Below, piece by piece: positions 3,676 to 19,433 of a stretch of 64,000 bases of DNA (the stretch's first letter is position 1; each line of letters opens with the position of its first letter). The notes below the pieces were generated by a model. It saw nothing but the letters and a program-made list of their open reading frames with translations. It was not told the origin of the DNA and searched no databases. This stretch comes from Escherichia coli (GTDB lineage: Bacteria > Pseudomonadota > Gammaproteobacteria > Enterobacterales > Enterobacteriaceae), in assembly GCF_011045215.1 (NCBI RefSeq), contig NZ_CP049201.1; one strand, 5' to 3'. The position numbers were made by a program, and so were the translations under genes.

Positions 3676-3999
3676 ATGCAATTTTCTACAACCCCAACTC
3701 TGGAAGGCCAGACCATCGTTGAATATTGCGGTGTGGTGACCGGCGAAGCGATTTTAGGTGCCAATGTTTTCCGTGATTTCTTTGCCGGTATCCGCGATAT
3801 CGTTGGCGGACGTTCCGGTGCGTATGAAAAAGAACTGCGTAAAGCACGGGAGATCGCCTTTGAGGAATTAGGCTCCCAGGCGCGGGCGCTGGGGGCCGAT
3901 GCCGTCGTCGGTATTGATATCGACTACGAAACGGTCGGGCAAAACGGCAGTATGCTGATGGTTAGCGTCAGCGGTACGGCGGTGAAAACGCGTCGATGA
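3676..3999 (+). CDS. ybjQ: UPF0145 family protein YbjQ
   Basis: 107-aa ORF; stop overlaps amiD start (ATGA). Confidence 0.8.
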
Positions 4000-4826
4000 G
4001 AAGAGTCTTCTGGCTGGTCGCTGCCGCTCTGTTATTGGCAGGGTGTGCAGGCGAAAAAGGCATTGTCGAGAAAGAGGGATATCAGCTTGATACCCGACGC
4101 CAGGCGCAGGCGGCGTATCCGCGCATTAAAGTGCTGGTGATCCACTACACCGCAGATGATTTTGATAGCTCGCTGGCGACACTGACCGATAAGCAGGTCA
4201 GCTCGCATTATCTGGTCCCTGCGGTACCACCGCGATACAACGGTAAACCGCGCATCTGGCAACTGGTGCCGGAACAAGAACTGGCCTGGCATGCGGGGAT
4301 TAGCGCCTGGCGCGGGGCAACGCGCCTTAACGACACCTCTATTGGCATTGAGCTGGAAAACCGTGGCTGGCAAAAATCGGCCGGAGTGAAATATTTTGCC
4401 CCGTTTGAACCGGCACAGATTCAGGCGCTTATTCCACTGGCGAAAGATATTATTGCCCGTTATCACATCAAGCCGGAAAACGTAGTGGCACATGCGGATA
4501 TCGCACCGCAGCGCAAAGACGATCCGGGGCCATTATTTCCCTGGCAGCAACTGGCGCAGCAGGGGATTGGTGCCTGGCCGGATGCGCAGCGGGTTAACTT
4601 TTACCTTGCCGGGCGCGCGCCGCACACACCGGTAGATACCGCGTCATTGCTGGAGCTTTTGGCGCGCTACGGTTATGACGTTAAACCTGATATGACACCG
4701 CGCGAGCAGCGGCGCGTGATTATGGCATTCCAGATGCATTTCCGCCCGACGTTATATAACGGCGAAGCGGATGCAGAAACTCAGGCGATTGCCGAAGCAT
4801 TGCTGGAGAAATACGGGCAGGATTAG
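3996..4826 (+). CDS. amiD: N-acetylmuramoyl-L-alanine amidase AmiD (lipoprotein)
   Basis: 276-aa ORF with lipoprotein signal (LLLAGCAG) and amidase_2-like core. Confidence 0.85.
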
Positions 4827-5836
4827 CGCGGCAGTTTTCCGTGGTCGCGTAGCCAGGCGGCAGTTTTCTCGATACCTTCATCCAGGGTGATGACCGGCTG
4901 ATAACCTAACTCTTCCTGCGCACGCGTAATATCCAGCGTAAAGTCAAAATTCAACTTGGAGACGCCGTAGTGGGTCAGCGGCGGCTCTTTTGCTGACTTG
5001 CGGCCTAAACGCTCCATGCTGCGGGCGATCATATCCAGCATCGGGTAGGGGACGGAACGAATACGACAGTCAATATTCAACTCGTCGATCAGCTTCTGCA
5101 CGATGCTGCGCAGTGTGCGATGCTCGCCGTTGGTGATGTTGTACACACGCCCGGAAGGTAGCTTATCGCAGGCTTCCTGGCTTGCCAGCCACATTGCGTG
5201 CACGGCATTTTCATAGTAGGTCATATCGACCAGCGCACTGCCGCCATGCGGTAACAGAATACTGCCGTAGTGGTGCATCATATGCGCCAGACGGGGAATA
5301 AAGACTTTATCGTGCGGTCCGAACAGACTTTGTGGGCGCAGAATAGTAAAGCGCGTTTGTGGATTCGCCTGCGAAAGCATATTGATCACTTCTTCGCTGG
5401 CTGCTTTGCTGCGGGCAAACTCGTTGGCGAAGCGGTGAGGGCGAAAATCTTCTTTAATATCGCGATGGTGGTGATAATCGAAGTACAGGGAGGGGGAAGA
5501 GATATGAATAAAGTTACGCACACCCCAGGCGACAGCCCATTCACCCAGGCGGCGAGTGGCGCGAACGTTAGCCAGATCGAAAGCCTGTTGTGTCCCCCAG
5601 GGTGAGGTAAAGCTGGAGCAGTGCCACAGCGTATCAATGCCCGCGAGCATCACTTTAGCTTGTGATGAAACCAGCTCGGTCAGATCCGCCGGAACAAACT
5701 CTGCGCCCATTTTTTCCAGCAATTTGCCCATTGCCTCGTTGCGACCGGTCGCTCGCACGCTGATGCCTTTCTGGCATAAAAACTCTACCGCGTTTCGACC
5801 TAAGCCGCTGGTGGCGCCGGTAACCAGTACCTTCAT
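4823..5836 (-). CDS. ybjS: NAD-dependent epimerase/dehydratase family protein YbjS
   Basis: Rossmann motif [13 protein letters not shown] at the chosen internal start (337 aa); 3' end overlaps amiD convergently. Confidence 0.75.
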
Positions 5837-5934
5837 ATCAATCCACTGTTGTTGAGAAAATAACGTGCGCATTCTTCCGTGATTTCCCCCATGATGCAAT
5901 GGGAAACATGAAAGAATAACGCAGGTTTTGTCGA

Positions 5935-7365
5935 TTAATCTGTGCTTTGTTCTGCCAGTCTGGCGATTTGTTTTGCCATTCCGCGAAAAATAAACAGATG
6001 CGCGGGGATCATCAATAACCAGTAAAACAGCCCCGGCATACCGTGCGGATGCCAGAAAGCGCGGACATCGATAGTACGATAGTCGCCTTTATCTTCCAGG
6101 CTAAAACACAGTCGTCCCAGCCCCGGCGCTTTCATGCCAAATAACAACGTAAGTTGTTTTTCCGGTTCAACGACAATCACTTTCCAGCTATCTACCGCAT
6201 CGCCAGTCTGTAAATATTCGCGCTCCGGGCGGCCTTTCGCCAGCTTATGACCGATCGCGCGGTCCATCAACGCCCGTGTCTGCCACAAAATATTGCCAAA
6301 GAAATAACGCTCTTTACCGCCGATTTGGTTCACTACCTGCCATAAAGCAGCAAGGCTGGCGGACGTTTTAACGGTAAACCCCGCCTGTTTGGCAAAATAA
6401 CCGTACTCCGGTCGCCAGCGGGCAAAGGCCTGAGCGTCGTAGCCCCAGTCGCTGGAGTTGACCAGTTTTTCCTCCTCTTTCAACGTGCTACGTACCGCGT
6501 CATCGAAAGCGATCAGCCGTTGTGGGATGAGTGCACGTAGCGCGGTATCATCCGCCAGCAGATCGTGTTTCAGCCCCTGAATCAACGCCCTGGCGGTGGT
6601 GGGCGGTACGGAAGTAATCACATTGAGAAACCATACCGAAATCCAGCGGGTGGGGAGGGGGATGGGGATCAACCAGCGGCGCTTACCGCTCACCGCCATA
6701 AAATGTTCAAACTGTTGCTGATAACTGAGCACCTCTGGTCCGGCGGCTTCGAAGATGCGGTGTTCGCTGGCCGGATGATCTAACAACGCCACCAGATAGT
6801 GCAGCAAGTTTTCCAGCGCGATGGGCGTGGTGCGTGAACGTACCCAGCGTGGCGGCGTTAACACTGGCAGGTTGTAGACCATATCGCGCATGACTTCGAA
6901 CGCCGCTGAACCTGCGCCAACGATAATTCCGGCCCGAAGTTCGGTCACAGGTACATTCGCTTCACGAAGAATGTCCGCCGTAGCCTGACGAGCACGCAGA
7001 TGATCCGACTGCTCATGTGGCGGGGCCTGCAACGAACTGAGAAAGATTAATTGCTTAACTGGTACTTCACGTAGCGCATCGCGGACGTTGAGAGCCACCT
7101 GGCGCTCCTGAGCGATAAAATCGCCGCCTTCGCCCATGCTGTGCACCAGAAAATAGACGGTATCGATATCCTGCAACAGGGCCGGAAGGTTATCCGGCCA
7201 GCTGAGATCGACTTTATGGCAACTGACGTTTGCCAGTTGCAGCTTTGCAAGCCTGTCGACATGACGTGCCGCCGCCAGGATCTGATGCCCTTGCTGGCTG
7301 AGTGTGCGCACCAGATGCTGGCCAATGTAGCCACTGGCACCGAGAACTAAAATGCGTTGCGGCAC
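5935..7365 (-). CDS. ybjT: NAD(P)-binding epimerase-like protein YbjT
   Basis: Rossmann motif [14 protein letters not shown]; GTG start at 7363-7365 chosen to give about 476 aa. Confidence 0.7.
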
Positions 7366-7375
7366 GTCTCTCTCC

Positions 7376-8377
7376 TTAACGCGCCAGGAATGCGCGCCAG
7401 TGGGCGGCGACTTCCGCCAGTTGTTCGCGCGAGACGTCAAGATGCGTCACCAGGCGGACAATCGGCGAGGCGTTAATCAGCACGTTTCTCGCTTTCATGT
7501 ATTCGCCTAACGCGGCAGCATTTTCTTCCCCGACGCGAACAAACAGCATATTAGTGTCCTGACGCATCACATCCGCGCCTGCTTCACGCAGTTGCTCCGC
7601 CATCCAGGCGGCGTTGTCGTGATCTTCCTGCAACCGTGCGACGTTATTTTTCAGGGCATATATTCCGGCGGCAGCCAGAATGCCGGACTGGCGCATCCCG
7701 CCACCTGTCATTTTCCGCCAGCGGATGGCACGTTTAATGTAATCACGATTACCGACGAGTAATGAACCGACTGGCGTCCCAAGACCTTTCGACAGGCAAA
7801 TGGTGAACGAATCACAATATTGCGTGATCTCTTTCAGTTCGCAGCCGTAAGCCACCACGGCATTAAAGATGCGCGCACCGTCAACATGCAGCGCCAGATT
7901 GCGCTCGCGGGTAAATTCCCATGCTTCTTTAAGGTATTCACGCGGCAACACTTTGCCGTTGTGGGTGTTTTCCAGACTGAGTAATTTGGTGCGGGCGAAA
8001 TGGATATCGTCGGGTTTGATTTTCATCGCCACTTTATCCAGCGGTAGCGTGCCGTCGGCAGCCGCGTCGATGGGTTGCGGTTGAATACTGCCCAGCACCG
8101 CTGCGCCACCGGCTTCAAACAGATAGTTATGCGCGGCCTGACCGACAATATACTCTTCGCCACGTTCGCAGTGACTGAGCAGAGCGACCAGGTTGGCCTG
8201 AGTGCCGGTCGGCAGAAAAATGGCGGCTTCTTTACCGGAAAGCTCTGCGGCGTAGTCCTGCAGAGCATTAACGGTAGGGTCGTCTCCGTAAACGTCGTCC
8301 CCAACCGGGGCGGCCATCATTGCTTCGAGCATGGCGCGGCTCGGTCGGGTAACGGTATCACTGCGTAAATCAATCAT
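7376..8377 (-). CDS. ltaE: Low-specificity L-threonine aldolase
   Basis: 333-aa ORF, PLP-dependent aldolase-like; synteny upstream of poxB. Confidence 0.88.
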
Positions 8378-8413
8378 GGCATGTCCTTATTATGACGGGA
8401 AATGCCACCCTTT

Positions 8414-10132
8414 TTACCTTAGCCAGTTCGTTTTCGCCAGTTCGATCACTTCATCGCCGCGTCCGCTGATGATTGCGCGCAACATATACAGGCTGAAACC
8501 TTTGGCCTGTTCGAGTTTGATCTGCGGTGGAATGGCTAACTCTTCTTTGGCGACCACCACATCCACCAGCACCGGACCGTCGATGGAGAAGGCGCGTTGC
8601 AGGGCTTCATCAACTTCAGACGCTTTTTCTACACGGATACCCGTAATGCCGCACGCTTCGGCAATGCGGGCAAAGTTTGTGTCGTGTAGTTCGGTGCCGT
8701 CAGTCAAATAGCCACCAGCTTTCATCTCCATCGCCACAAAGCCCAGCACGCTGTTGTTAAAGACGACAATTTTCACTGGCAGTTTCATCTGCACTACTGA
8801 GAGGAAATCGCCCATCAACATGCTAAAACCGCCATCGCCGCACATGGCGACCACCTGACGTTCTGGCTCTGTCGCCTGCGCACCCAGCGCCTGCGGCATG
8901 GCGTTAGCCATCGAACCGTGGTTAAACGAACCTAACAGGCGACGCTTGCCGTTCATTTTTAGATAACGTGCCGCCCACACCGTTGGCGTACCAACGTCAC
9001 AGGTGAAAATAGCGTCATCGGCGGCAAAATGACTAATTTGCTGCGCCAGATATTGCGGGTGAATGGCTTTCTCGCTCGGTTTAGCTAAATCGTCCAGCCC
9101 TTTGCGGGCGTCGCGGTAATCTTCCAGCGCTTTATCCAGAAACTTGCGATCGGCTTTTTCTTCCACCAATGGAAGCAATGCACGCAGAGTCGACTTGATA
9201 TCGCCGACCAGTGCCATATCCACCTTGCTGTGAGCGCCGATGCTGGCTGGGTTGATATCAATCTGAATGATTTTGGCATCGGTCGGGTAGAAGGCGCGGT
9301 AGGGAAATTGCGTGCCGAGTAGCACTAACGTGTCGGCGTTCATCATGGTATGGAAACCTGACGAGAAGCCGATTAACCCGGTCATTCCAACATCATACGG
9401 ATTATCGTATTCGACATGTTCTTTACCGCGCAGGGCATGAACAATAGGCGCTTTAATTTTCCCGGCAAACTCAACTAACTCTTTATGCGCCCCCGCGCAG
9501 CCGCTGCCACACATCAGGGCGATATTGCTGGAATAACGCAGCAGTTGCGCCAGTTTGCGTAACTCTTCTTCTTCCGGCGTCACGACTGGTTGTGGCGCAT
9601 GATACCAGTGCATGGTTGCCCCTTCTGGCGCAGGTTTTAACGCCACGTCGCCTGGTAACACGACAACCGAAACGCCACGGTTAAGCACCGCTTTGCGCAT
9701 GGCAATCGCCAGTACTTGTGGGATCTGCTCCGGGCTGGAAACCAGCTCGCAATAGTGACTACATTCGCGGAATAGCTCTTGTGGGTGGGTTTCCTGGAAA
9801 TAGCCGCTGCCAATTTCGCTGGAGGGAATATGAGCGGCAATCGCCAGTACCGGAACGTGATTGCGGTGGCAATCGAACAGGCCGTTGATTAAGTGCAGGT
9901 TGCCGGGGCCGCACGATCCGGCGCAGACCGCCAGTTCTCCGCTAAGTTGTGCTTCAGCGCCAGCGGCAAAGGCCGCCACTTCTTCGTGGCGGGTGGACAT
10001 CCACTCGATGGTGCCCATGCGATTAAGACTGTCACTAAGACCGTTCAGAGAGTCGCCTGTGACTCCCCAGATGCGTTTCACCCCTGCCGATTCGAGTGTT
10101 TTGGCGATATAAGCTGCAACCGTTTGTTTCAT
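8414..10132 (-). CDS. poxB: Pyruvate dehydrogenase (ubiquinone) / pyruvate oxidase
   Basis: 572-aa ORF of the thiamine-diphosphate enzyme family. Confidence 0.92.
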
Positions 10133-14434: not shown

Positions 14435-15130
14435 TTAATTACGTTTTTCCAGCAGAGTCCGGTAAATCAGACCACCGATAATGCCGCCGACAATTGGCAC
14501 CACCCAGAAGAACCACAGTTGTTCTAATGCCCAGCCGCCCTGGAAGATAGCAACCGCGGTGCTGCGCGCCGGGTTAACAGAAGTGTTAGTCACCGGAATA
14601 CTGATTAAGTGAATCAGGGTTAAGGCCAGACCAATAGCGATCGGCGCAAAACCTGCCGGAGCGAATTTGTCGGTTGCACCGTGGATCACTAACAGGAAGC
14701 CCGCACTCAATACCAGTTCAACTACCAGCGCGGAAAGCATGGAATAACCGCCTGGTGAATGCTCGCCATAACCGTTAGAAGCAAAACCGCTGGCTGCCGC
14801 GTCAAAACCCGTTTTACCACTGGCAATTAAATACAGCAGCGCTGCCGCAACAATACCGCCGACAACCTGGGCAATTACGTAGCCAACGACTTCTTTTGCC
14901 GGAAAACGTCCGCCAGCCCATAAACCAATAGTGACCGCCGGGTTAAAATGACCACCAGAAATATGACCAACAGCAAAGGCCATCGTCAGAACGGTCAGAC
15001 CGAACGCCAACGCCACGCCGGCAAAACCAATGCCTAATTCCGGGAAGCCTGCGGCCAGAACAGCACTACCACAGCCACCAAAAACAAGCCAGAAAGTACC
15101 AAAACATTCAGCTGCTAATTTTCTGAACAT
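14435..15130 (-). CDS. aqpZ: Aquaporin Z
   Basis: MIP-family channel with two NPA-type motifs ([16 protein letters not shown]); 231 aa from the internal Met. Confidence 0.9.
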
Positions 15131-15555
15131 ATCCACCTCAATTAAAAATTGACCCTGTGAAAAATATGGTCGTTTTATAGGGTCGTCGTAAAAAAGTGAC
15201 GACGGAAATAATGCGCGGCTATTTTAAAAACGAAGGCGAGTCATTCACCAGATAAATAAATCCAGTAAATTTGATTTAGGGCAACAGCGGGTTGCCCCAT
15301 ATAGTCATTTGTCTGATTGACAGTGTAGTGCAAGCAAAAGATTTAATCCTTTAGGCGTAATAAAAAATAATTTATCATGCTAATTATTTGATTTTGTTGT
15401 TTTTGCAGACTTATCAGCAAGAGGGAGTATAACGCGATTATTCGCTCATTTTTCAGACATTTGCCATGCTTAAATGTGATGTCATCACGTATTAGCAAGG
15501 CCTTTCCCGTTATACTGCCAGCGTAAAGGATAAGTCACATATTTCTGGAGGGGAT

Positions 15556-17214
15556 ATGATTCTTGAGCGCGTTGAAATTGTGGGTTTTCGCGGTATCAAC
15601 CGTTTGTCGTTGATGCTGGAACAAAACAACGTCCTGATTGGGGAGAACGCGTGGGGTAAATCCAGCTTGCTGGACGCCTTAACCCTGCTGCTATCGCCAG
15701 AATCAGATCTCTACCATTTTGAGCGCGACGATTTCTGGTTCCCGCCGGGAGATATCAACGGGCGAGAACATCATCTGCATATTATTTTGACCTTCCGCGA
15801 ATCGCTGCCAGGCCGACATCGGGTTCGCCGTTATCGGCCGCTGGAAGCGTGCTGGACGCCATGCACCGATGGCTATCACCGTATTTTTTATCGTCTGGAA
15901 GGGGAGAGTGCGGAAGACGGCAGCGTGATGACACTGCGCAGTTTTCTCGATAAAGACGGACATCCGATTGATGTTGAGGATATTAACGATCAGGCACGCC
16001 ATCTGGTGCGTTTAATGCCGGTGCTGCGCTTGCGTGATGCCCGTTTTATGCGCCGTATTCGTAACGGCACGGTGCCAAATGTCCCCAATGTGGAAGTCAC
16101 CGCGCGCCAGCTCGATTTCCTCGCCCGTGAGTTGTCCTCACATCCGCAAAATCTCTCTGATGGACAGATTCGTCAGGGACTTTCCGCAATGGTGCAGTTG
16201 CTTGAGCATTATTTCTCTGAGCAGGGGGCTGGACAGGCGCGATATCGTTTAATGCGGCGGCGGGCCAGCAATGAGCAACGAAGCTGGCGCTATCTGGACA
16301 TCATCAACCGGATGATTGACCGACCTGGAGGGCGCTCGTATCGGGTTATTTTGCTCGGCCTGTTTGCTACTTTATTGCAGGCAAAAGGCACATTGCGACT
16401 GGATAAAGACGCCCGTCCATTGTTGCTGATCGAAGATCCAGAAACGCGTTTACACCCCATTATGCTTTCAGTTGCCTGGCATCTGTTGAATCTTTTGCCT
16501 TTACAACGTATTGCTACCACCAACTCTGGCGAGCTGCTTTCGTTAACTCCAGTGGAACATGTTTGCCGCCTGGTGCGTGAATCTTCTCGTGTTGCCGCCT
16601 GGCGTCTGGGGCCTAGTGGCTTGAGCACCGAAGACAGCCGCCGCATCTCTTTTCACATTCGTTTTAATCGTCCGTCATCGCTGTTTGCTCGCTGCTGGTT
16701 GCTGGTGGAAGGGGAAACGGAAACCTGGGTTATCAATGAACTGGCGCGTCAGTGCGGACATCATTTTGATGCCGAAGGAATCAAGGTCATTGAGTTTGCC
16801 CAGTCCGGGCTAAAGCCACTGGTTAAATTTGCCCGGCGAATGGGGATTGAATGGCATGTACTGGTCGATGGAGATGAAGCAGGAAAGAAATATGCCGCTA
16901 CGGTACGCAGCCTGTTGAATAATGATCGGGAAGCCGAACGAGAACATTTAACGGCGTTACCGGCGCTGGATATGGAACATTTTATGTATCGCCAGGGATT
17001 TTCCGATGTGTTCCACCGCGTGGCGCAAATCCCGGAAAATGTCCCAATGAATCTGCGCAAAATTATCTCGAAAGCGATCCATCGCTCTTCCAAACCCGAT
17101 CTTGCCATTGAAGTGGCAATGGAGGCCGGACGTCGTGGTGTGGACTCCGTACCGACGCTGCTGAAAAAAATGTTCTCACGCGTGCTGTGGCTGGCGCGCG
17201 GTCGCGCGGATTAA
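15556..17214 (+). CDS. ybjD: OLD-family ATP-dependent endonuclease-like protein YbjD
   Basis: 552-aa ORF; N-terminal P-loop-like GENAWGKSSLLDAL, then acidic DxD-rich C-terminal (TOPRIM-like) region. Confidence 0.8.
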   Translation: MILERVEIVGFRGINRLSLMLEQNNVLIGENAWGKSSLLDALTLLLSPESDLYHFERDDFWFPPGDINGREHHLHIILTFRESLPGRHRVRRYRPLEACWTPCTDGYHRIFYRLEGESAEDGSVMTLRSFLDKDGHPIDVEDINDQARHLVRLMPVLRLRDARFMRRIRNGTVPNVPNVEVTARQLDFLARELSSHPQNLSDGQIRQGLSAMVQLLEHYFSEQGAGQARYRLMRRRASNEQRSWRYLDIINRMIDRPGGRSYRVILLGLFATLLQAKGTLRLDKDARPLLLIEDPETRLHPIMLSVAWHLLNLLPLQRIATTNSGELLSLTPVEHVCRLVRESSRVAAWRLGPSGLSTEDSRRISFHIRFNRPSSLFARCWLLVEGETETWVINELARQCGHHFDAEGIKVIEFAQSGLKPLVKFARRMGIEWHVLVDGDEAGKKYAATVRSLLNNDREAEREHLTALPALDMEHFMYRQGFSDVFHRVAQIPENVPMNLRKIISKAIHRSSKPDLAIEVAMEAGRRGVDSVPTLLKKMFSRVLWLARGRAD

Positions 17215-18203
17215 CCGCGAAACATCGTGGCCATTTGTGGCTGAATAGCGTCGAGCATCTCATAGCGCCGACGGTATTCAGCCCGTTTTTTACTGGCGAT
17301 TTCGGCAATCTCTTTTCGTGCTATCTGTGCTGGAAGGCGGTAATGGCGTTCAGCATCACATACGCCGCCAACCGATTCCCAGAAAGCGTTGTAATCGGCA
17401 TGGATCTTGCCTTCTTTATCGCGATAACGCAGGCTGCGGTAAATATGCGTTTCATTGCTGACGGCAATAATCTGCTCTACCTGCAAACGTTGGGCAAACA
17501 GACAGGCCGCTTCCATCACGAGGCGTTTGGGAAATAGCCCGTGGCAGGCTTTCGTCGCATTCTGGATTTCCTGATGTGGAATTTCCCATTTTGCGCCTTG
17601 CAGTCCACCAATAAACATCGTTCTTTTCCCCTGATATTCACACAGGGTAAACGTGATTTCTGCCAGAGGAATACCTTCGCTGTTGCGGAACAGGATTGTG
17701 CTATCACCTTCTTTATCCATTGAGATCATCATGGTCAGCTCAAGCGTGAACTGCTCGCCGTTTTTGCCTTCCAGCTTCGCCAGTTGCAGCCCGGGGGTAT
17801 TCAAATATAAGCTGAATTCTTCCGCCGACATACACCCGCGGAGTAACGCATAATGGTAACGTAACGCCTCCAGCAATTGCTTACGGCTAAGATTCGCCGC
17901 AAGGTAAGGGCGATGCAGACGTACAGGCAGTCGCGGCTGGCGCGTTAACAACACATTGAGATTAGGCCAGTGTGAAAGTTCGTTCATCCACTCAACGCTT
18001 AAACGCGGCATAATCAACGAGCGCAGCAAAAATTTCTGGCGAAAACTACGGCGATGCCAGAATTTACCCGGCCGACACTGTCCACGTGCCAGACTAAGAA
18101 AAAGTGACAGGCTGCTGAGAGATTCAGATGGCGTAAAGGTCCGTTCAGTTAGCTGCGACATATTCATGAAATCAATGGTTATACATGACGTCGATTTCAC
18201 CAT
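17211..18203 (-). CDS. ybjX: VirK/YbjX family (DUF535) protein
   Basis: 330-aa ORF; 3' end overlaps ybjD convergently by 4 nt. Confidence 0.8.
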   Translation of the reverse strand: MVKSTSCITIDFMNMSQLTERTFTPSESLSSLSLFLSLARGQCRPGKFWHRRSFRQKFLLRSLIMPRLSVEWMNELSHWPNLNVLLTRQPRLPVRLHRPYLAANLSRKQLLEALRYHYALLRGCMSAEEFSLYLNTPGLQLAKLEGKNGEQFTLELTMMISMDKEGDSTILFRNSEGIPLAEITFTLCEYQGKRTMFIGGLQGAKWEIPHQEIQNATKACHGLFPKRLVMEAACLFAQRLQVEQIIAVSNETHIYRSLRYRDKEGKIHADYNAFWESVGGVCDAERHYRLPAQIARKEIAEIASKKRAEYRRRYEMLDAIQPQMATMFRG

Positions 18204-18317
18204 TGCGTATCTTAACCAAACATCAATAGTGCGATTACTAACGTAAATTTTAGGGTTTTGTTGATATTTCGTTGAAGTTAATGACCCGGATTGGCATATG
18301 GAGTATTCAGAATATTT

Positions 18318-19433
18318 ATGAAAAAGCGGAAAACCGTGAAGAAGCGTTACGTTATTGCGCTGGTGATAGTCATCGCCGGACTGATTACGTTATGGAGAAT
18401 TCTTAACGCACCCGTGCCGACTTATCAGACACTGATTGTGCGCCCCGGTGATTTACAGCAAAGCGTGCTGGCGACCGGAAAGCTGGACGCGCTGCGTAAG
18501 GTTGATGTGGGCGCGCAGGTCAGCGGTCAGTTGAAAACGCTGTCGGTGGCGATTGGCGATAAAGTAAAAAAAGACCAGCTTTTAGGGGTCATTGATCCTG
18601 AACAGGCTGAAAACCAGATCAAGGAGGTCGAAGCAACGCTGATGGAGCTACGCGCGCAGCGGCAGCAGGCGGAAGCGGAGCTGAAACTGGCGCGGGTGAC
18701 GTATTCCCGTCAGCAACGTCTGGCACAAACGCAGGCGGTTTCACAGCAGGATCTCGACACCGCCGCGACGGAGATGGCTGTGAAACAGGCGCAAATTGGC
18801 ACCATTGACGCGCAAATCAAGCGCAATCAGGCTTCTCTCGATACGGCTAAAACCAATCTCGATTACACTCGCATCGTTGCCCCGATGGCCGGGGAAGTCA
18901 CGCAAATCACCACTCTGCAAGGCCAGACGGTGATTGCCGCACAACAAGCACCGAACATTCTGACGCTGGCAGATATGAGCACCATGCTGGTAAAAGCGCA
19001 GGTTTCTGAAGCGGATGTAATCCACCTGAAGCCGGGGCAAAAAGCCTGGTTTACGGTGCTTGGCGATCCACTGACGCGCTACGAGGGGCAAATCAAGGAT
19101 GTGCTACCGACGCCGGAAAAGGTTAACGACGCCATTTTCTATTACGCCCGTTTTGAAGTACCCAACCCCAATGGTTTGCTGCGGCTGGATATGACTGCGC
19201 AAGTGCATATTCAGCTCACCGATGTGAAAAATGTGCTGACGATCCCTCTGTCGGCGTTAGGCGATCCGGTTGGCGATAATCGTTATAAAGTCAAATTGTT
19301 GCGTAATGGTGAAACACGCGAGCGTGAAGTGACGATTGGCGCACGTAACGATACCGATGTTGAGATTGTCAAAGGGCTGGAAGCGGGCGATGAAGTGGTG
19401 ATTGGTGAGGCCAAACCAGGAGCTGCACAATGA
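18318..19433 (+). CDS. macA: Macrolide export membrane fusion protein MacA
   Basis: Periplasmic adaptor protein with coiled-coil; internal start MKKRKTVKK (371 aa). Confidence 0.88.

What the first reader, a model, noticed from the sequence alone, without database searches (positions are those of the whole stretch)
15556..18203. Core OLD-family ATPase/nuclease-like gene ybjD convergently overlapping ybjX
ybjD has an N-terminal P-loop ATPase and acidic C-terminal region of the OLD family, whose members function in phage exclusion and defense systems, yet it is a single conserved chromosomal gene here. Its stop overlaps the 3' end of the convergent ybjX by 4 nt, so the two transcripts must terminate inside each other.
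Basis: partly seen in the sequence, partly recalled or inferred. Interest (0 to 1): 0.3.

Follow-up and report, generated by a model that had tools for sequence, protein, structure and literature searches.

The report
Known OLD nuclease gene, ordinary overlap
This is the E. coli core gene ybjD, an OLD-family ATPase/nuclease whose stop codon shares four bases with the stop of the opposite-strand gene ybjX; both the gene's identity and the overlapping transcription are already published, so the finding is real but ordinary.

Summary
ybjD (15556-17214, +, 552 aa) and ybjX (17211-18203 as longest ORF, -) share a TTAA stop/stop overlap at 17211-17214. Published start-site mapping puts the true ybjX start at M13/M15 (18167/18161).

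Sequence, profile and fold all place YbjD in the OLD family (ABC ATPase plus Toprim), with no partner helicase. The locus is in 5424 of 5426 complete E. coli genomes.

- YbjD seeded the 2019 OLD Class 1/2 classification.
- A 2026 paper renames it oldB. The deletion has no phage phenotype. Only overexpression weakly affects a few phages, and that effect does not need the Toprim domain.
- ybjD-ybjX is listed among 165 convergent "excludons" (2025).
- A Rho-dependent stop on the ybjX strand lies about 880 nt inside ybjD (2021).
- Four-base YTAR convergent overlaps are the known modal class (2007).

What I add:
- The 4-nt overlap is kept in 62 of 63 Enterobacteriaceae loci, despite turnover of ybjX paralogues.
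- ybjD survives where ybjX is lost.
- The Toprim active site is the most constrained part of the protein.
- A strong, Escherichia-specific, terminator-like hairpin for ybjD lies inside the ybjX codons.

The parts
15556..17214 (+). ybjD (proposed name oldB) coding sequence, 552 aa: Class 1 OLD-family ATPase/nuclease
   Evidence: ORF and translation; Pfam DUF2813 plus OLD-like_TOPRIM; RefSeq annotation; PDB profile and fold matches to Ts OLD, GajA and Eco8 OLD
15556..16680 (+). ABC-type ATPase domain (aa 1-375) with an inserted helical, presumed dimerisation, region (about aa 177-277). Motifs: Walker A G29-S36 (K35); Walker B E293; D-loop H300; H-loop position N323
   Evidence: Pfam DUF2813 covers 1-375. 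HMMER alignment to Ts OLD maps K35=K34, E293=E276, H300=H283 and N323=H310. Helices appear in the AF2 model.
16681..16965 (+). Toprim nuclease domain (aa 376-470). Metal-A ligands E385, D438, D440; metal-B ligand E389
   Evidence: Pfam OLD-like_TOPRIM 376-440. Alignment to Ts OLD E377/D381/D431/D433. These residues are invariant or nearly so in 63 family members. This is the most conserved segment among 78 orthologues, with dN/dS 0.004-0.036 where synonymous change is not saturated
16966..17211 (+). C-terminal helical region (aa 471-552). It carries the near-invariant D472 and invariant E474 (probable second metal-B ligands) and the invariant K513-P514
   Evidence: Family alignment. Helices 473-547 in the AF2 model. 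The D-x-E spacing matches Ts S478/E480 and P2 D541/E543. The residue assignment is inferred, not tested
17211..17214 (.). TTAA: the 4-nt stop/stop overlap (ybjD TAA 17212-17214; ybjX TAA is the complement of 17211-17213)
   Evidence: Sequence. The same YTAR overlap occurs in 62 of 63 Enterobacteriaceae loci that have a DUF535 gene next to ybjD. This is a known modal class
17211..18167 (-). ybjX coding sequence (DUF535/VirK family), 318 aa from M13 (an alternative start, M15, is at 18161). The K-12 annotation extends to 18203
   Evidence: Pfam DUF535 E 3e-102. The transcription start lies 18 nt inside the annotated ORF, and M13/M15 starts were shown experimentally. PGAP annotation
17239..17291 (+). 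Candidate intrinsic terminator of ybjD: a 45-nt hairpin (17239-17283), then CG, then T6 (17286-17291). It is embedded in ybjX codons about 293-310 (of the 330-aa ORF)
   Evidence: Fold energy is -26.5 kcal/mol. It is the most stable hairpin abutting a T5+ run on either strand of the whole 64-kb window; the hairpin+T-run elements just beyond the 3' ends of the aqpZ and cspD coding sequences (presumably their terminators) score about -14. It is present in all 8 Escherichia loci. Covariation across genera does not support it. No published 3'-end was found
16329..17210 (-). Stretch of ybjD transcribed antisense on the ybjX strand, ending at a Rho-dependent termination region (best coordinate MG1655 917246 = window 16329)
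   Evidence: Adams et al. 2021, Supplementary file 2. Reads up/downstream were 299/18 without bicyclomycin (the Rho inhibitor) and 568/545 with it; Rho score 15.9, p 7e-53. Coordinates were mapped through MG1655 ybjD 916473..918131. A C-over-G-rich stretch lies at about 16740-16975 on the - strand
18185..18228 (-). ybjX promoter: PhoP box TATTGA-5-GGTTAA (18228-18212), -10 element TGAAAT (18199-18194), transcription start T at about 18185
   Evidence: Sequence matches the elements defined by primer extension and mutagenesis in Shigella, and by start-site mapping in E. coli

Best explanation
The window is E. coli chromosome. ybjD encodes a stand-alone (Class 1 by gene context) OLD-family enzyme. 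It has an ABC-type ATPase with an inserted helical dimerisation region, followed by a Toprim two-metal nuclease and a C-terminal helical region. It is a vertically inherited core gene of Enterobacterales and relatives, not a mobile defence cassette.

Its stop is interlocked with the stop of the PhoPQ-activated gene ybjX in a YTAR tetranucleotide. This is the commonest kind of convergent overlap. It is stable because the central TA belongs to both stop codons, and the two outer bases are synonymous positions on both strands.

Transcription is resolved asymmetrically. ybjX-strand RNA polymerase runs on for roughly 0.9 kb antisense to the 3' half of ybjD until Rho stops it (shown by published data). 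ybjD mRNA probably ends about 77 nt past its stop, at a strong hairpin plus U-tract written into ybjX codons (predicted; Escherichia only).

For the protein, the most likely mechanism is an ATP-bound, restrained dimer whose Toprim site cuts nucleic acid when it is released. The published overexpression anti-phage effect needs the ATPase domain but not the Toprim domain. It therefore probably does not report the native activity. The native activity, judged from selection, depends on the nuclease site.
For: Identity and family. No partner gene: neighbours are aqpZ and ybjX, and distant DUF2813 relatives also stand alone among housekeeping genes.

Core and vertical inheritance: the locus is in 5424 of 5426 E. 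coli genomes. Eighty species across Enterobacteriaceae have 80-99% identical, about 552-aa orthologues in the aqpZ-ybjD-(ybjX)-macA context. Tatumella has lysO-ybjD-cspD-clpS-clpA. The gene is absent from 50,697 phage records apart from a 2-kb unannotated fragment record (H11). It is effectively absent from plasmid records, apart from records in that collection (42 kb to 4.9 Mb) carrying ybjD and ybjX at 99.6-100% identity.

Selection: dN/dS is about 0.015-0.09 overall where measurable and 0.004-0.036 in the Toprim domain. Invariant family residues cluster in the Toprim and C-terminal regions.

Overlap conservation: 62 of 63 loci.

Transcript overlap: excludon list and the Rho region antisense to ybjD.

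Terminator candidate.

Experimental phenotypes and Class 1 assignment. PhoPQ control of ybjX.
Against: No 3'-end of ybjD mRNA has been mapped, and the Term-seq supplements I could read list none. The hairpin is not supported by covariation outside Escherichia, and its U-tract is the KK codons of a conserved YbjX motif. The antisense RNA over ybjD could in principle start at an internal promoter rather than by read-through from ybjX. The data I read give coverage, not 5' ends. The native substrate, trigger and phenotype of YbjD are unknown, and the deletion has no reported phenotype. dS is saturated in most comparisons, so the ratios are rough.
Confidence: 0.75

Rival explanations
1. YbjD is a dedicated anti-phage defence protein at native expression. 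It would be a chromosomal counterpart of P2 Old or Vibrio cholerae OLD that senses infection and kills the phage or the cell.
For: It belongs to the OLD family, and its best PADLOC matches are GajA and Old models. Induced expression reduces Bas18 and Bas20 plaquing and shrinks Bas64-68 plaques at a non-toxic inducer level.
Against: The deletion shows no change in phage susceptibility in plaque assays, and even overexpression affected only 7 of the 68 BASEL phages. The phenotype does not need the Toprim domain or the Walker A lysine. YbjD is not activated by loss of RecBC, unlike P2 Old. The gene is core, syntenic and slowly evolving, and it is absent from phages and true plasmids. This is unlike typical defence genes.
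Confidence: 0.25
2. YbjD is a domesticated housekeeping nuclease working in genome maintenance or RNA processing. Its anti-phage effect on overexpression would be a side effect of the ATPase or DNA-binding domain.
For: The Toprim metal ligands and K513 are invariant, or nearly so, across gammaproteobacterial relatives, whereas ATPase motifs vary (K35 is K/R/S; position 323 is N/Q/H/Y). Synteny is stable from Tatumella to Escherichia. The N-terminal domain is homologous to Rad50, SMC, RecF and RecN. The 2026 paper cites an essential archaeal OLD, Cran1, involved in the cell cycle. [quoted passage not shown]
Against: The gene is not essential, and no DNA-damage or growth phenotype is reported. 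There is no conserved partnership with repair genes; one distant relative sits next to polB, which is only an anecdote.
Confidence: 0.4
3. The overlap is a selected regulatory device (an excludon). PhoPQ induction of ybjX would drive antisense transcription across ybjD and lower YbjD when Mg2+ is low or cationic peptides are present.
For: ybjX is PhoPQ-activated. Antisense RNA covers about 0.9 kb of ybjD and is limited by Rho. The pair is called an excludon in most RNA-seq samples. The overlap persists in 62 of 63 loci even though different DUF535 paralogues occupy the position.
Against: Four-nucleotide convergent overlaps are common and self-stabilising without any regulatory role. Eighteen of 81 loci (Klebsiella, Raoultella, some Enterobacter, Superficieibacter) have lost ybjX yet keep ybjD at the same conservation. 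No reciprocal expression data exist. In one cathelicidin transcriptome ybjD signal rose rather than fell, although I could not determine whether that data was strand-specific.
Confidence: 0.2
4. The overlap has no function. It is a neutral result of compaction, produced because TTA and CTA are the complements of stop codons, and it is frozen because changing the central TA destroys both stops at once.
For: [quoted passage not shown] All four tetramers occur among the orthologous loci, and variation is confined to the two synonymous outer bases.
Against: Retention through replacement of the overlapping DUF535 paralogue needs either repeated re-creation or recombination within the conserved 3' motif. 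This hints at some constraint, but it does not prove one.
Confidence: 0.6

Closest known systems
E. coli YbjD / OldB as published (Schiltz et al. 2019, PMC6755086; Atahualpa et al. 2026, PMC13261556)
   Same: It is the same gene. The product is 100% identical to a 5302-member database cluster (P0001) and to ybjD annotated in E. coli records, and the locus DNA is 95-99.6% identical across E. coli genomes. It is classified as a Class 1 OLD and described as convergent with ybjX.
   Different: There is no difference in the object. This analysis adds only comparative data: overlap conservation, domain-wise constraint, a terminator candidate, and a link to published Rho data.
Thermus scotoductus OLD (PDB 6P74), the structural archetype of Class 1
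   Same: It is the best sequence-profile match among solved structures (E 2e-21, residues 2-443). It has the same order of ATPase, helical insert and Toprim. The catalytic residues align (K35/K34, E293/E276, H300/H283, E385/E377, E389/D381, D438/D431, D440/D433).
   Different: Identity is only about 16%. YbjD has Asn at the H-loop position, a variant reported in other Class 1 proteins. [quoted passage not shown]
Gabija GajA (Class 2 OLD; PDB 8SM3, 8U7I, 8X5I)
   Same: It gives the best fold matches (Foldseek E 1e-19 to 1e-16, TM about 0.55-0.65) and the best PADLOC models (PDLC00094, E 7e-80).
   Different: No GajB/UvrD-like helicase lies next to ybjD or next to any DUF2813 relative examined. 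It is therefore not a Gabija system.
Bacteriophage P2 Old
   Same: It is the founding family member and a single-gene OLD. YbjD matches it weakly (27.8% over residues 252-440, E 6e-6).
   Different: P2 Old is phage-borne and kills recBC hosts, and it needs both the ATPase and the nuclease residues. YbjD is chromosomal, is not lethal in a recBC(ts) host, and its overexpression phenotype does not need the Toprim domain.
Convergent excludons / 4-bp tail-to-tail overlaps (ExcludonFinder 2025, PMC12288877; Lillo & Krakauer 2007, PMC2174442)
   Same: ybjD-ybjX is on the published list of 165 E. coli convergent excludons. TTAA is one of the four canonical tetramers. Terminators embedded in the partner coding sequence were described for 19 of 58 E. 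coli convergent overlaps.
   Different: Mutual repression, which defines a functional excludon, has not been shown for this pair.

Membership tests
OLD family nucleases | [quoted passage not shown] | tested here: met
   GENAWGKS (K35) and IEDPE (E293) are present. Pfam AAA_15/DUF2813 match. Alignment to Ts OLD K34/E276. The fold matches GajA and Ts OLD.
OLD family nucleases | C-terminal Toprim domain with conserved acidic metal ligands (E, DxD) | tested here: met
   Pfam OLD-like_TOPRIM E 4e-16. E385, E389, D438 and D440 align to Ts E377, D381, D431 and D433 and are invariant or nearly so in 63 relatives.
OLD family nucleases | Metal-dependent nuclease and ATPase activity | not testable with these tools
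   I found no biochemical data on YbjD. The 2026 paper is genetic only.
Class 1 OLD (stand-alone) | Isolated gene with no adjacent UvrD/PcrA/Rep-like helicase, retron or other partner | tested here: met
   Neighbours are aqpZ (divergent) and ybjX (convergent). The same holds in 80 orthologous loci and 7 distant relatives.
Gabija (GajA/GajB, Class 2 OLD) | GajB helicase gene immediately downstream of the OLD gene | tested here: not met
   The downstream gene is ybjX (DUF535) on the opposite strand, or macA where ybjX is absent. The PADLOC GajA model hit reflects homology only.
Anti-phage defence system (functional sense) | Loss of the gene increases phage sensitivity at native expression | tested here: not met
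   From the literature, not from my tools: the Keio ybjD deletion shows no difference in phage susceptibility in plaque assays, and only pBAD overexpression, screened against the 68 BASEL phages, gives phenotypes.
Anti-phage defence system (genomic sense) | Patchy, mobile distribution; location in defence islands, prophages or plasmids | tested here: not met
   The gene is core in E. coli and syntenic across Enterobacteriaceae. It is absent from the phage collection and present in the plasmid collection only on records (42 kb to 4.9 Mb) carrying ybjD and ybjX at 99.6-100% identity.
Excludon | Overlapping transcripts from neighbouring opposite-strand genes | tested here: met
   Published RNA-seq call and a published Rho-limited antisense RNA over ybjD. 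The coding-sequence overlap makes some transcript overlap unavoidable.
Excludon | Reciprocal (mutually exclusive) expression, often dependent on RNase III | not testable with these tools
   I found no condition-resolved, strand-specific expression data for the pair.
Intrinsic (Rho-independent) terminator | Stable GC-rich hairpin immediately followed by a U-tract at an mRNA 3' end | tested here: inconclusive
   The hairpin (-26.5 kcal/mol) plus T6 is the strongest such element in the window. However, the stem is long and interrupted, covariation does not support it, and no mapped 3' end was found.
VirK/YbjX (DUF535) | Full-length match to the DUF535 profile | tested here: met
   Pfam PF04393 E 3e-102, residues 48-325.

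The most novel reading that the evidence does not exclude
YbjD is not primarily a phage-defence protein. Instead it is an anciently domesticated OLD nuclease with a Toprim-dependent cellular role. Its level is gated by PhoPQ through read-through antisense transcription from ybjX. This would link envelope or Mg2+ stress to a nuclease whose two-metal site itself needs divalent cations. The conserved interlocked stops would then be the fixed hinge of that regulatory arrangement.
Probability: 0.12. Interest if true: 0.55.

Novelty: already known. Interest (0 to 1): 0.18.

Why it matters
As a discovery it matters little. The gene's family, its class, its phage phenotypes and the overlapping transcription are all in print.

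The residual value lies in a mismatch. The only published phenotype needs the ATPase domain and not the nuclease domain. Yet selection across Gammaproteobacteria is strongest on the nuclease active site, and the gene behaves like a housekeeping gene rather than a mobile defence gene.

That makes ybjD a reasonable test case for whether some 'defence-family' proteins in core genomes have been recruited to cellular jobs. It also gives a concrete experiment on whether a PhoPQ-driven convergent neighbour controls it.

Tried and rejected
1. Covariation test of the ybjD terminator hairpin on 58 orthologous sequences. Cells were 65% paired, the same as shuffled controls, with no excess compensatory changes. 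The hairpin therefore cannot be claimed as conserved beyond Escherichia.

2. Search for mapped 3' ends of ybjD or ybjX. The Term-seq supplements that could be read list none. Other supplements are not held.

3. Gabija hypothesis, prompted by the strong PADLOC GajA hit. Rejected: there is no helicase next to ybjD or next to seven distant DUF2813 relatives.

4. Functional linkage of the OLD gene with DUF535. Rejected as a general rule: DUF535 is absent next to the Vibrio, Motilimonas and Tatumella homologues and is lost in Klebsiella and Raoultella.

5. H-loop His-to-Asn (N323) as a novelty. Rejected: the Ts OLD paper already reports Asn at this position in Class 1 homologues.

6. Rfam scan of 15000-18400 at a permissive threshold found nothing.

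7. The consensus promoter scan found no convincing ybjD promoter and no antisense promoter inside ybjD.

8. The Salmonella 'old is conditionally essential' lead could not be verified because the source paper is not held.

9. In the cathelicidin transcriptome the ybjD signal is up (table value 1.31). I could not establish strand-specificity, so I did not use it as evidence.
Full report
**What is there**

The window is E. coli chromosome with the gene order hcp, lysO, aqpZ (all -), ybjD (+), ybjX (-), macA, macB (+), cspD (-). ybjD runs 15556-17214 and encodes 552 aa, with a GGAGG ribosome-binding site before its ATG. The convergent ORF runs 17211-18203.

The + strand reads GAT TAA at 17209-17214, and the complement of 17211-17213 is the ybjX stop. 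The coding sequences therefore share TTAA, four bases. RefSeq annotation of a 99.6% identical strain and of MG1655 shows the same arrangement.

One correction is needed. Published transcription start mapping in E. coli and primer extension in Shigella place the ybjX start site 18 nt inside the annotated ORF. Translation begins at M13 or M15, at window 18167 or 18161.

**Family**

- YbjD matches Pfam DUF2813 over residues 1-375 (E 2e-160) and OLD-like_TOPRIM over 376-440 (E 4e-16). ybjX is DUF535.
- A profile built from 63 relatives finds the Thermus scotoductus (Ts) Class 1 OLD as the best solved structure (E 2e-21), followed by GajA.
- An AlphaFold model (pLDDT 88.8, pTM 0.87) matches GajA, Ts OLD and the retron Eco8 OLD over its full length.
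- Aligned to Ts OLD, the catalytic residues correspond:
  - K35 to the P-loop K34
  - E293 to the Walker B E276
  - H300 to the D-loop H283
  - E385, D438 and D440 to metal A
  - E389 to metal B
- The H-loop position is Asn (N323), a variant already reported for Class 1 homologues.
- No helicase, retron or other partner gene is adjacent, so the gene is Class 1 by context.

**Already published**

- YbjD was the query used to define the OLD classes in 2019, where E. coli is named as Class 1.
- A 2026 micropublication proposes the name oldB. It reports that the Keio deletion does not change phage susceptibility. Arabinose-induced expression, screened against the 68 BASEL phages, reduces plaquing of Bas18 and Bas20 and shrinks Bas64-68 plaques. 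The Toprim domain is dispensable and the ATPase domain is required. K35A keeps the phenotype and is more toxic. YbjD, unlike P2 Old, does not kill a recBC(ts) host.
- ybjD-ybjX appears in the list of 165 convergent excludons found in at least half of 58 MG1655 RNA-seq samples.
[quoted passage not shown] E. coli has 58 convergent overlaps, and in 19 of them a Rho-independent terminator sits inside the partner gene.

**Where the transcripts end**

Adams et al. 2021 list a Rho termination region at MG1655 917246 on the minus strand, classed as antisense to ybjD. [quoted passage not shown] The Rho score is 15.9 and p is 7e-53.

With MG1655 ybjD at 916473-918131, this maps to window 16329, about 880 nt past the ybjX stop. 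RNA on the ybjX strand therefore covers the 3' half of ybjD until Rho stops it. A C-over-G-rich stretch at about 16740-16975 on that strand is a plausible Rho loading region. Whether this RNA is ybjX read-through or starts internally is not shown. The consensus scan found no antisense promoter there.

For ybjD I found no mapped 3' end. Folding the + strand shows a 45-nt hairpin at 17239-17283 followed by CG and T6. At -26.5 kcal/mol it is the most stable hairpin abutting a T5+ run on either strand of the whole window. The hairpin+T-run elements just beyond the 3' ends of the aqpZ and cspD coding sequences (presumably their terminators) score about -14.

The hairpin is present in all eight Escherichia loci. 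It has no covariation support across 58 orthologous sequences. Its U-tract is the Lys-Lys codons of the conserved YbjX motif IASKKRAEYRRRY. I treat it as a good, Escherichia-specific candidate terminator, not as an established one.

**Comparative genomics**

- The locus is in 5424 of 5426 complete E. coli genomes.
- A scan of one genome per species returned 80 loci across Enterobacteriaceae with YbjD 80-99% identical and about 552 aa.
- The aqpZ-ybjD-ybjX-macA order is conserved. YbjX, however, is only 44-75% identical outside Escherichia and is missing in 18 loci (Klebsiella, Raoultella, some Enterobacter, Superficieibacter), where macA follows ybjD by 70-204 nt.
- Of 63 loci with a DUF535 gene beside ybjD, 62 keep exactly a 4-nt YTAR overlap. 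All four tetramers occur, and variation is limited to the outer two bases, which are synonymous on both strands.
- Kluyvera and one related genome carry two tandem DUF535 paralogues, and the proximal one overlaps ybjD. E. coli YbjX resembles the distal copy (67%) more than the proximal copy (49%), while the Enterobacter protein resembles the proximal one (61%). Different paralogues therefore occupy the interlocked position in different genera.
- In Tatumella the order is lysO-ybjD-cspD-clpS-clpA, without aqpZ, ybjX or macAB.
- Vibrio, Motilimonas and metagenomic DUF2813 relatives are also solitary among housekeeping genes.
- YbjD-type proteins are absent from 50,697 phage records apart from a 2-kb unannotated fragment record (H11); P2 Old matches at only 27.8% identity. 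Among plasmid records, near-identical copies occur only on records (42 kb to 4.9 Mb) carrying ybjD and ybjX at 99.6-100% identity.

**Selection**

- Among 78 distinct orthologues, the Toprim segment (376-470) is the most conserved, with 63% invariant columns against 41-58% in the ATPase parts.
- dN/dS is about 0.015-0.09 overall where measurable and 0.004-0.036 in the Toprim segment, with dS near saturation.
- In the wider family (28-54% identity), the invariant residues are almost all in the Toprim and C-terminal regions: E385, G386, E387, E389, W391, D440, G443, E474, G481, K513 and P514.
- ATPase motifs vary more. Position 35 is K in 56, R in 6 and S in 1. Position 323 is N in 37, Q in 10, H in 10 and Y in 5.

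[quoted passage not shown] My inference is that the overexpression phenotype does not report the native function, and that the native function depends on the nuclease site.

**Judgement**

All of it is already known, and the overlap belongs to a common class.

The open questions are the native role of a core, strongly constrained OLD nuclease, and whether PhoPQ-driven antisense transcription from ybjX regulates it. Neither is answered by my data. Retention of ybjD where ybjX is lost argues against an obligatory coupling.

Noticed in passing
L071 5656-7750 (also L072, L073, L080, L067): Kluyvera and one related Enterobacteriaceae genome carry two tandem DUF535 (ybjX-like) paralogues between ybjD and macA. 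E. coli YbjX resembles the distal copy (67%), and the Enterobacter and Atlantibacter proteins resemble the proximal copy (61% and 54%). This suggests an old duplication with differential loss. It would explain why YbjX identities are bimodal while YbjD stays at 80-91%.
   Followed up: partly
L024, L028-L030, L034, L035, L041, L042, L044, L046, L048-L050, L056, L059, L061, L065, L077: Klebsiella, Raoultella, some Enterobacter, Superficieibacter and others have no ybjX at this locus. macA starts 70-204 nt after the ybjD stop, and no terminator-like hairpin was detected in most of these spacers.
   Followed up: partly
L085 (Tatumella sp. JGM118) 3979-9845: The gene order is lysO, ybjD, cspD, clpS, clpA, with no aqpZ, ybjX or macAB. 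This suggests that ybjX-macAB (and aqpZ) were inserted around an older ybjD position in the Enterobacteriaceae lineage, or lost in Erwiniaceae.
   Followed up: no
window 18167-18203: The K-12 style ybjX start (330 aa) is upstream of the experimentally mapped transcription start. The -10 element TGAAAT (18199-18194) lies inside the annotated ORF. PGAP genomes use the 318-aa form, but the MG1655 record still lists 330 aa.
   Followed up: yes
P0149, P0162, P0175 (proteins): Proteins of 1188, 1482 and 1867 aa have a YbjD-type core (split DUF2813 plus OLD Toprim). They carry large insertions in the ATPase domain and long C-terminal extensions with no Pfam match.
   Followed up: partly
L090 162-4882: In an unnamed metagenomic contig, a DUF2813 OLD gene sits between a PhdYeFM-PIN toxin-antitoxin pair and a family B DNA polymerase gene, all on one strand.
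   Followed up: no
L040; L016: A record titled Chryseobacterium sp. 18061 carries an Enterobacter-like aqpZ-ybjD-ybjX-macA locus (YbjD 86% identical to E. coli). A MAG titled uncultured Raoultella carries a Citrobacter-like one (91%). These are likely contamination or mislabelling in the source assemblies.
   Followed up: no
plasmid collection hits H15-H20: Several records of 0.7-4.9 Mb filed as E. coli plasmids carry ybjD-ybjX at 100% identity. They look like chromosomes or chromosome fragments misfiled as plasmids.
   Followed up: no
window 17825-17854 (+): This is the only sigma-70-like match in the 3.4-kb region (CCGACA-18-CATAAT, 9 of 12). It lies inside ybjX on the antisense strand, and fewer sites were found than expected from shuffles, so it is probably chance.
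   Followed up: no
window 15556-17214 (literature): In a UPEC transcriptome after treatment with a cathelicidin-derived peptide, 'ybjD' signal rose (table value 1.31) alongside arn genes. If the data were not strand-specific, this could be PhoPQ-driven ybjX read-through rather than ybjD mRNA.
   Followed up: partly
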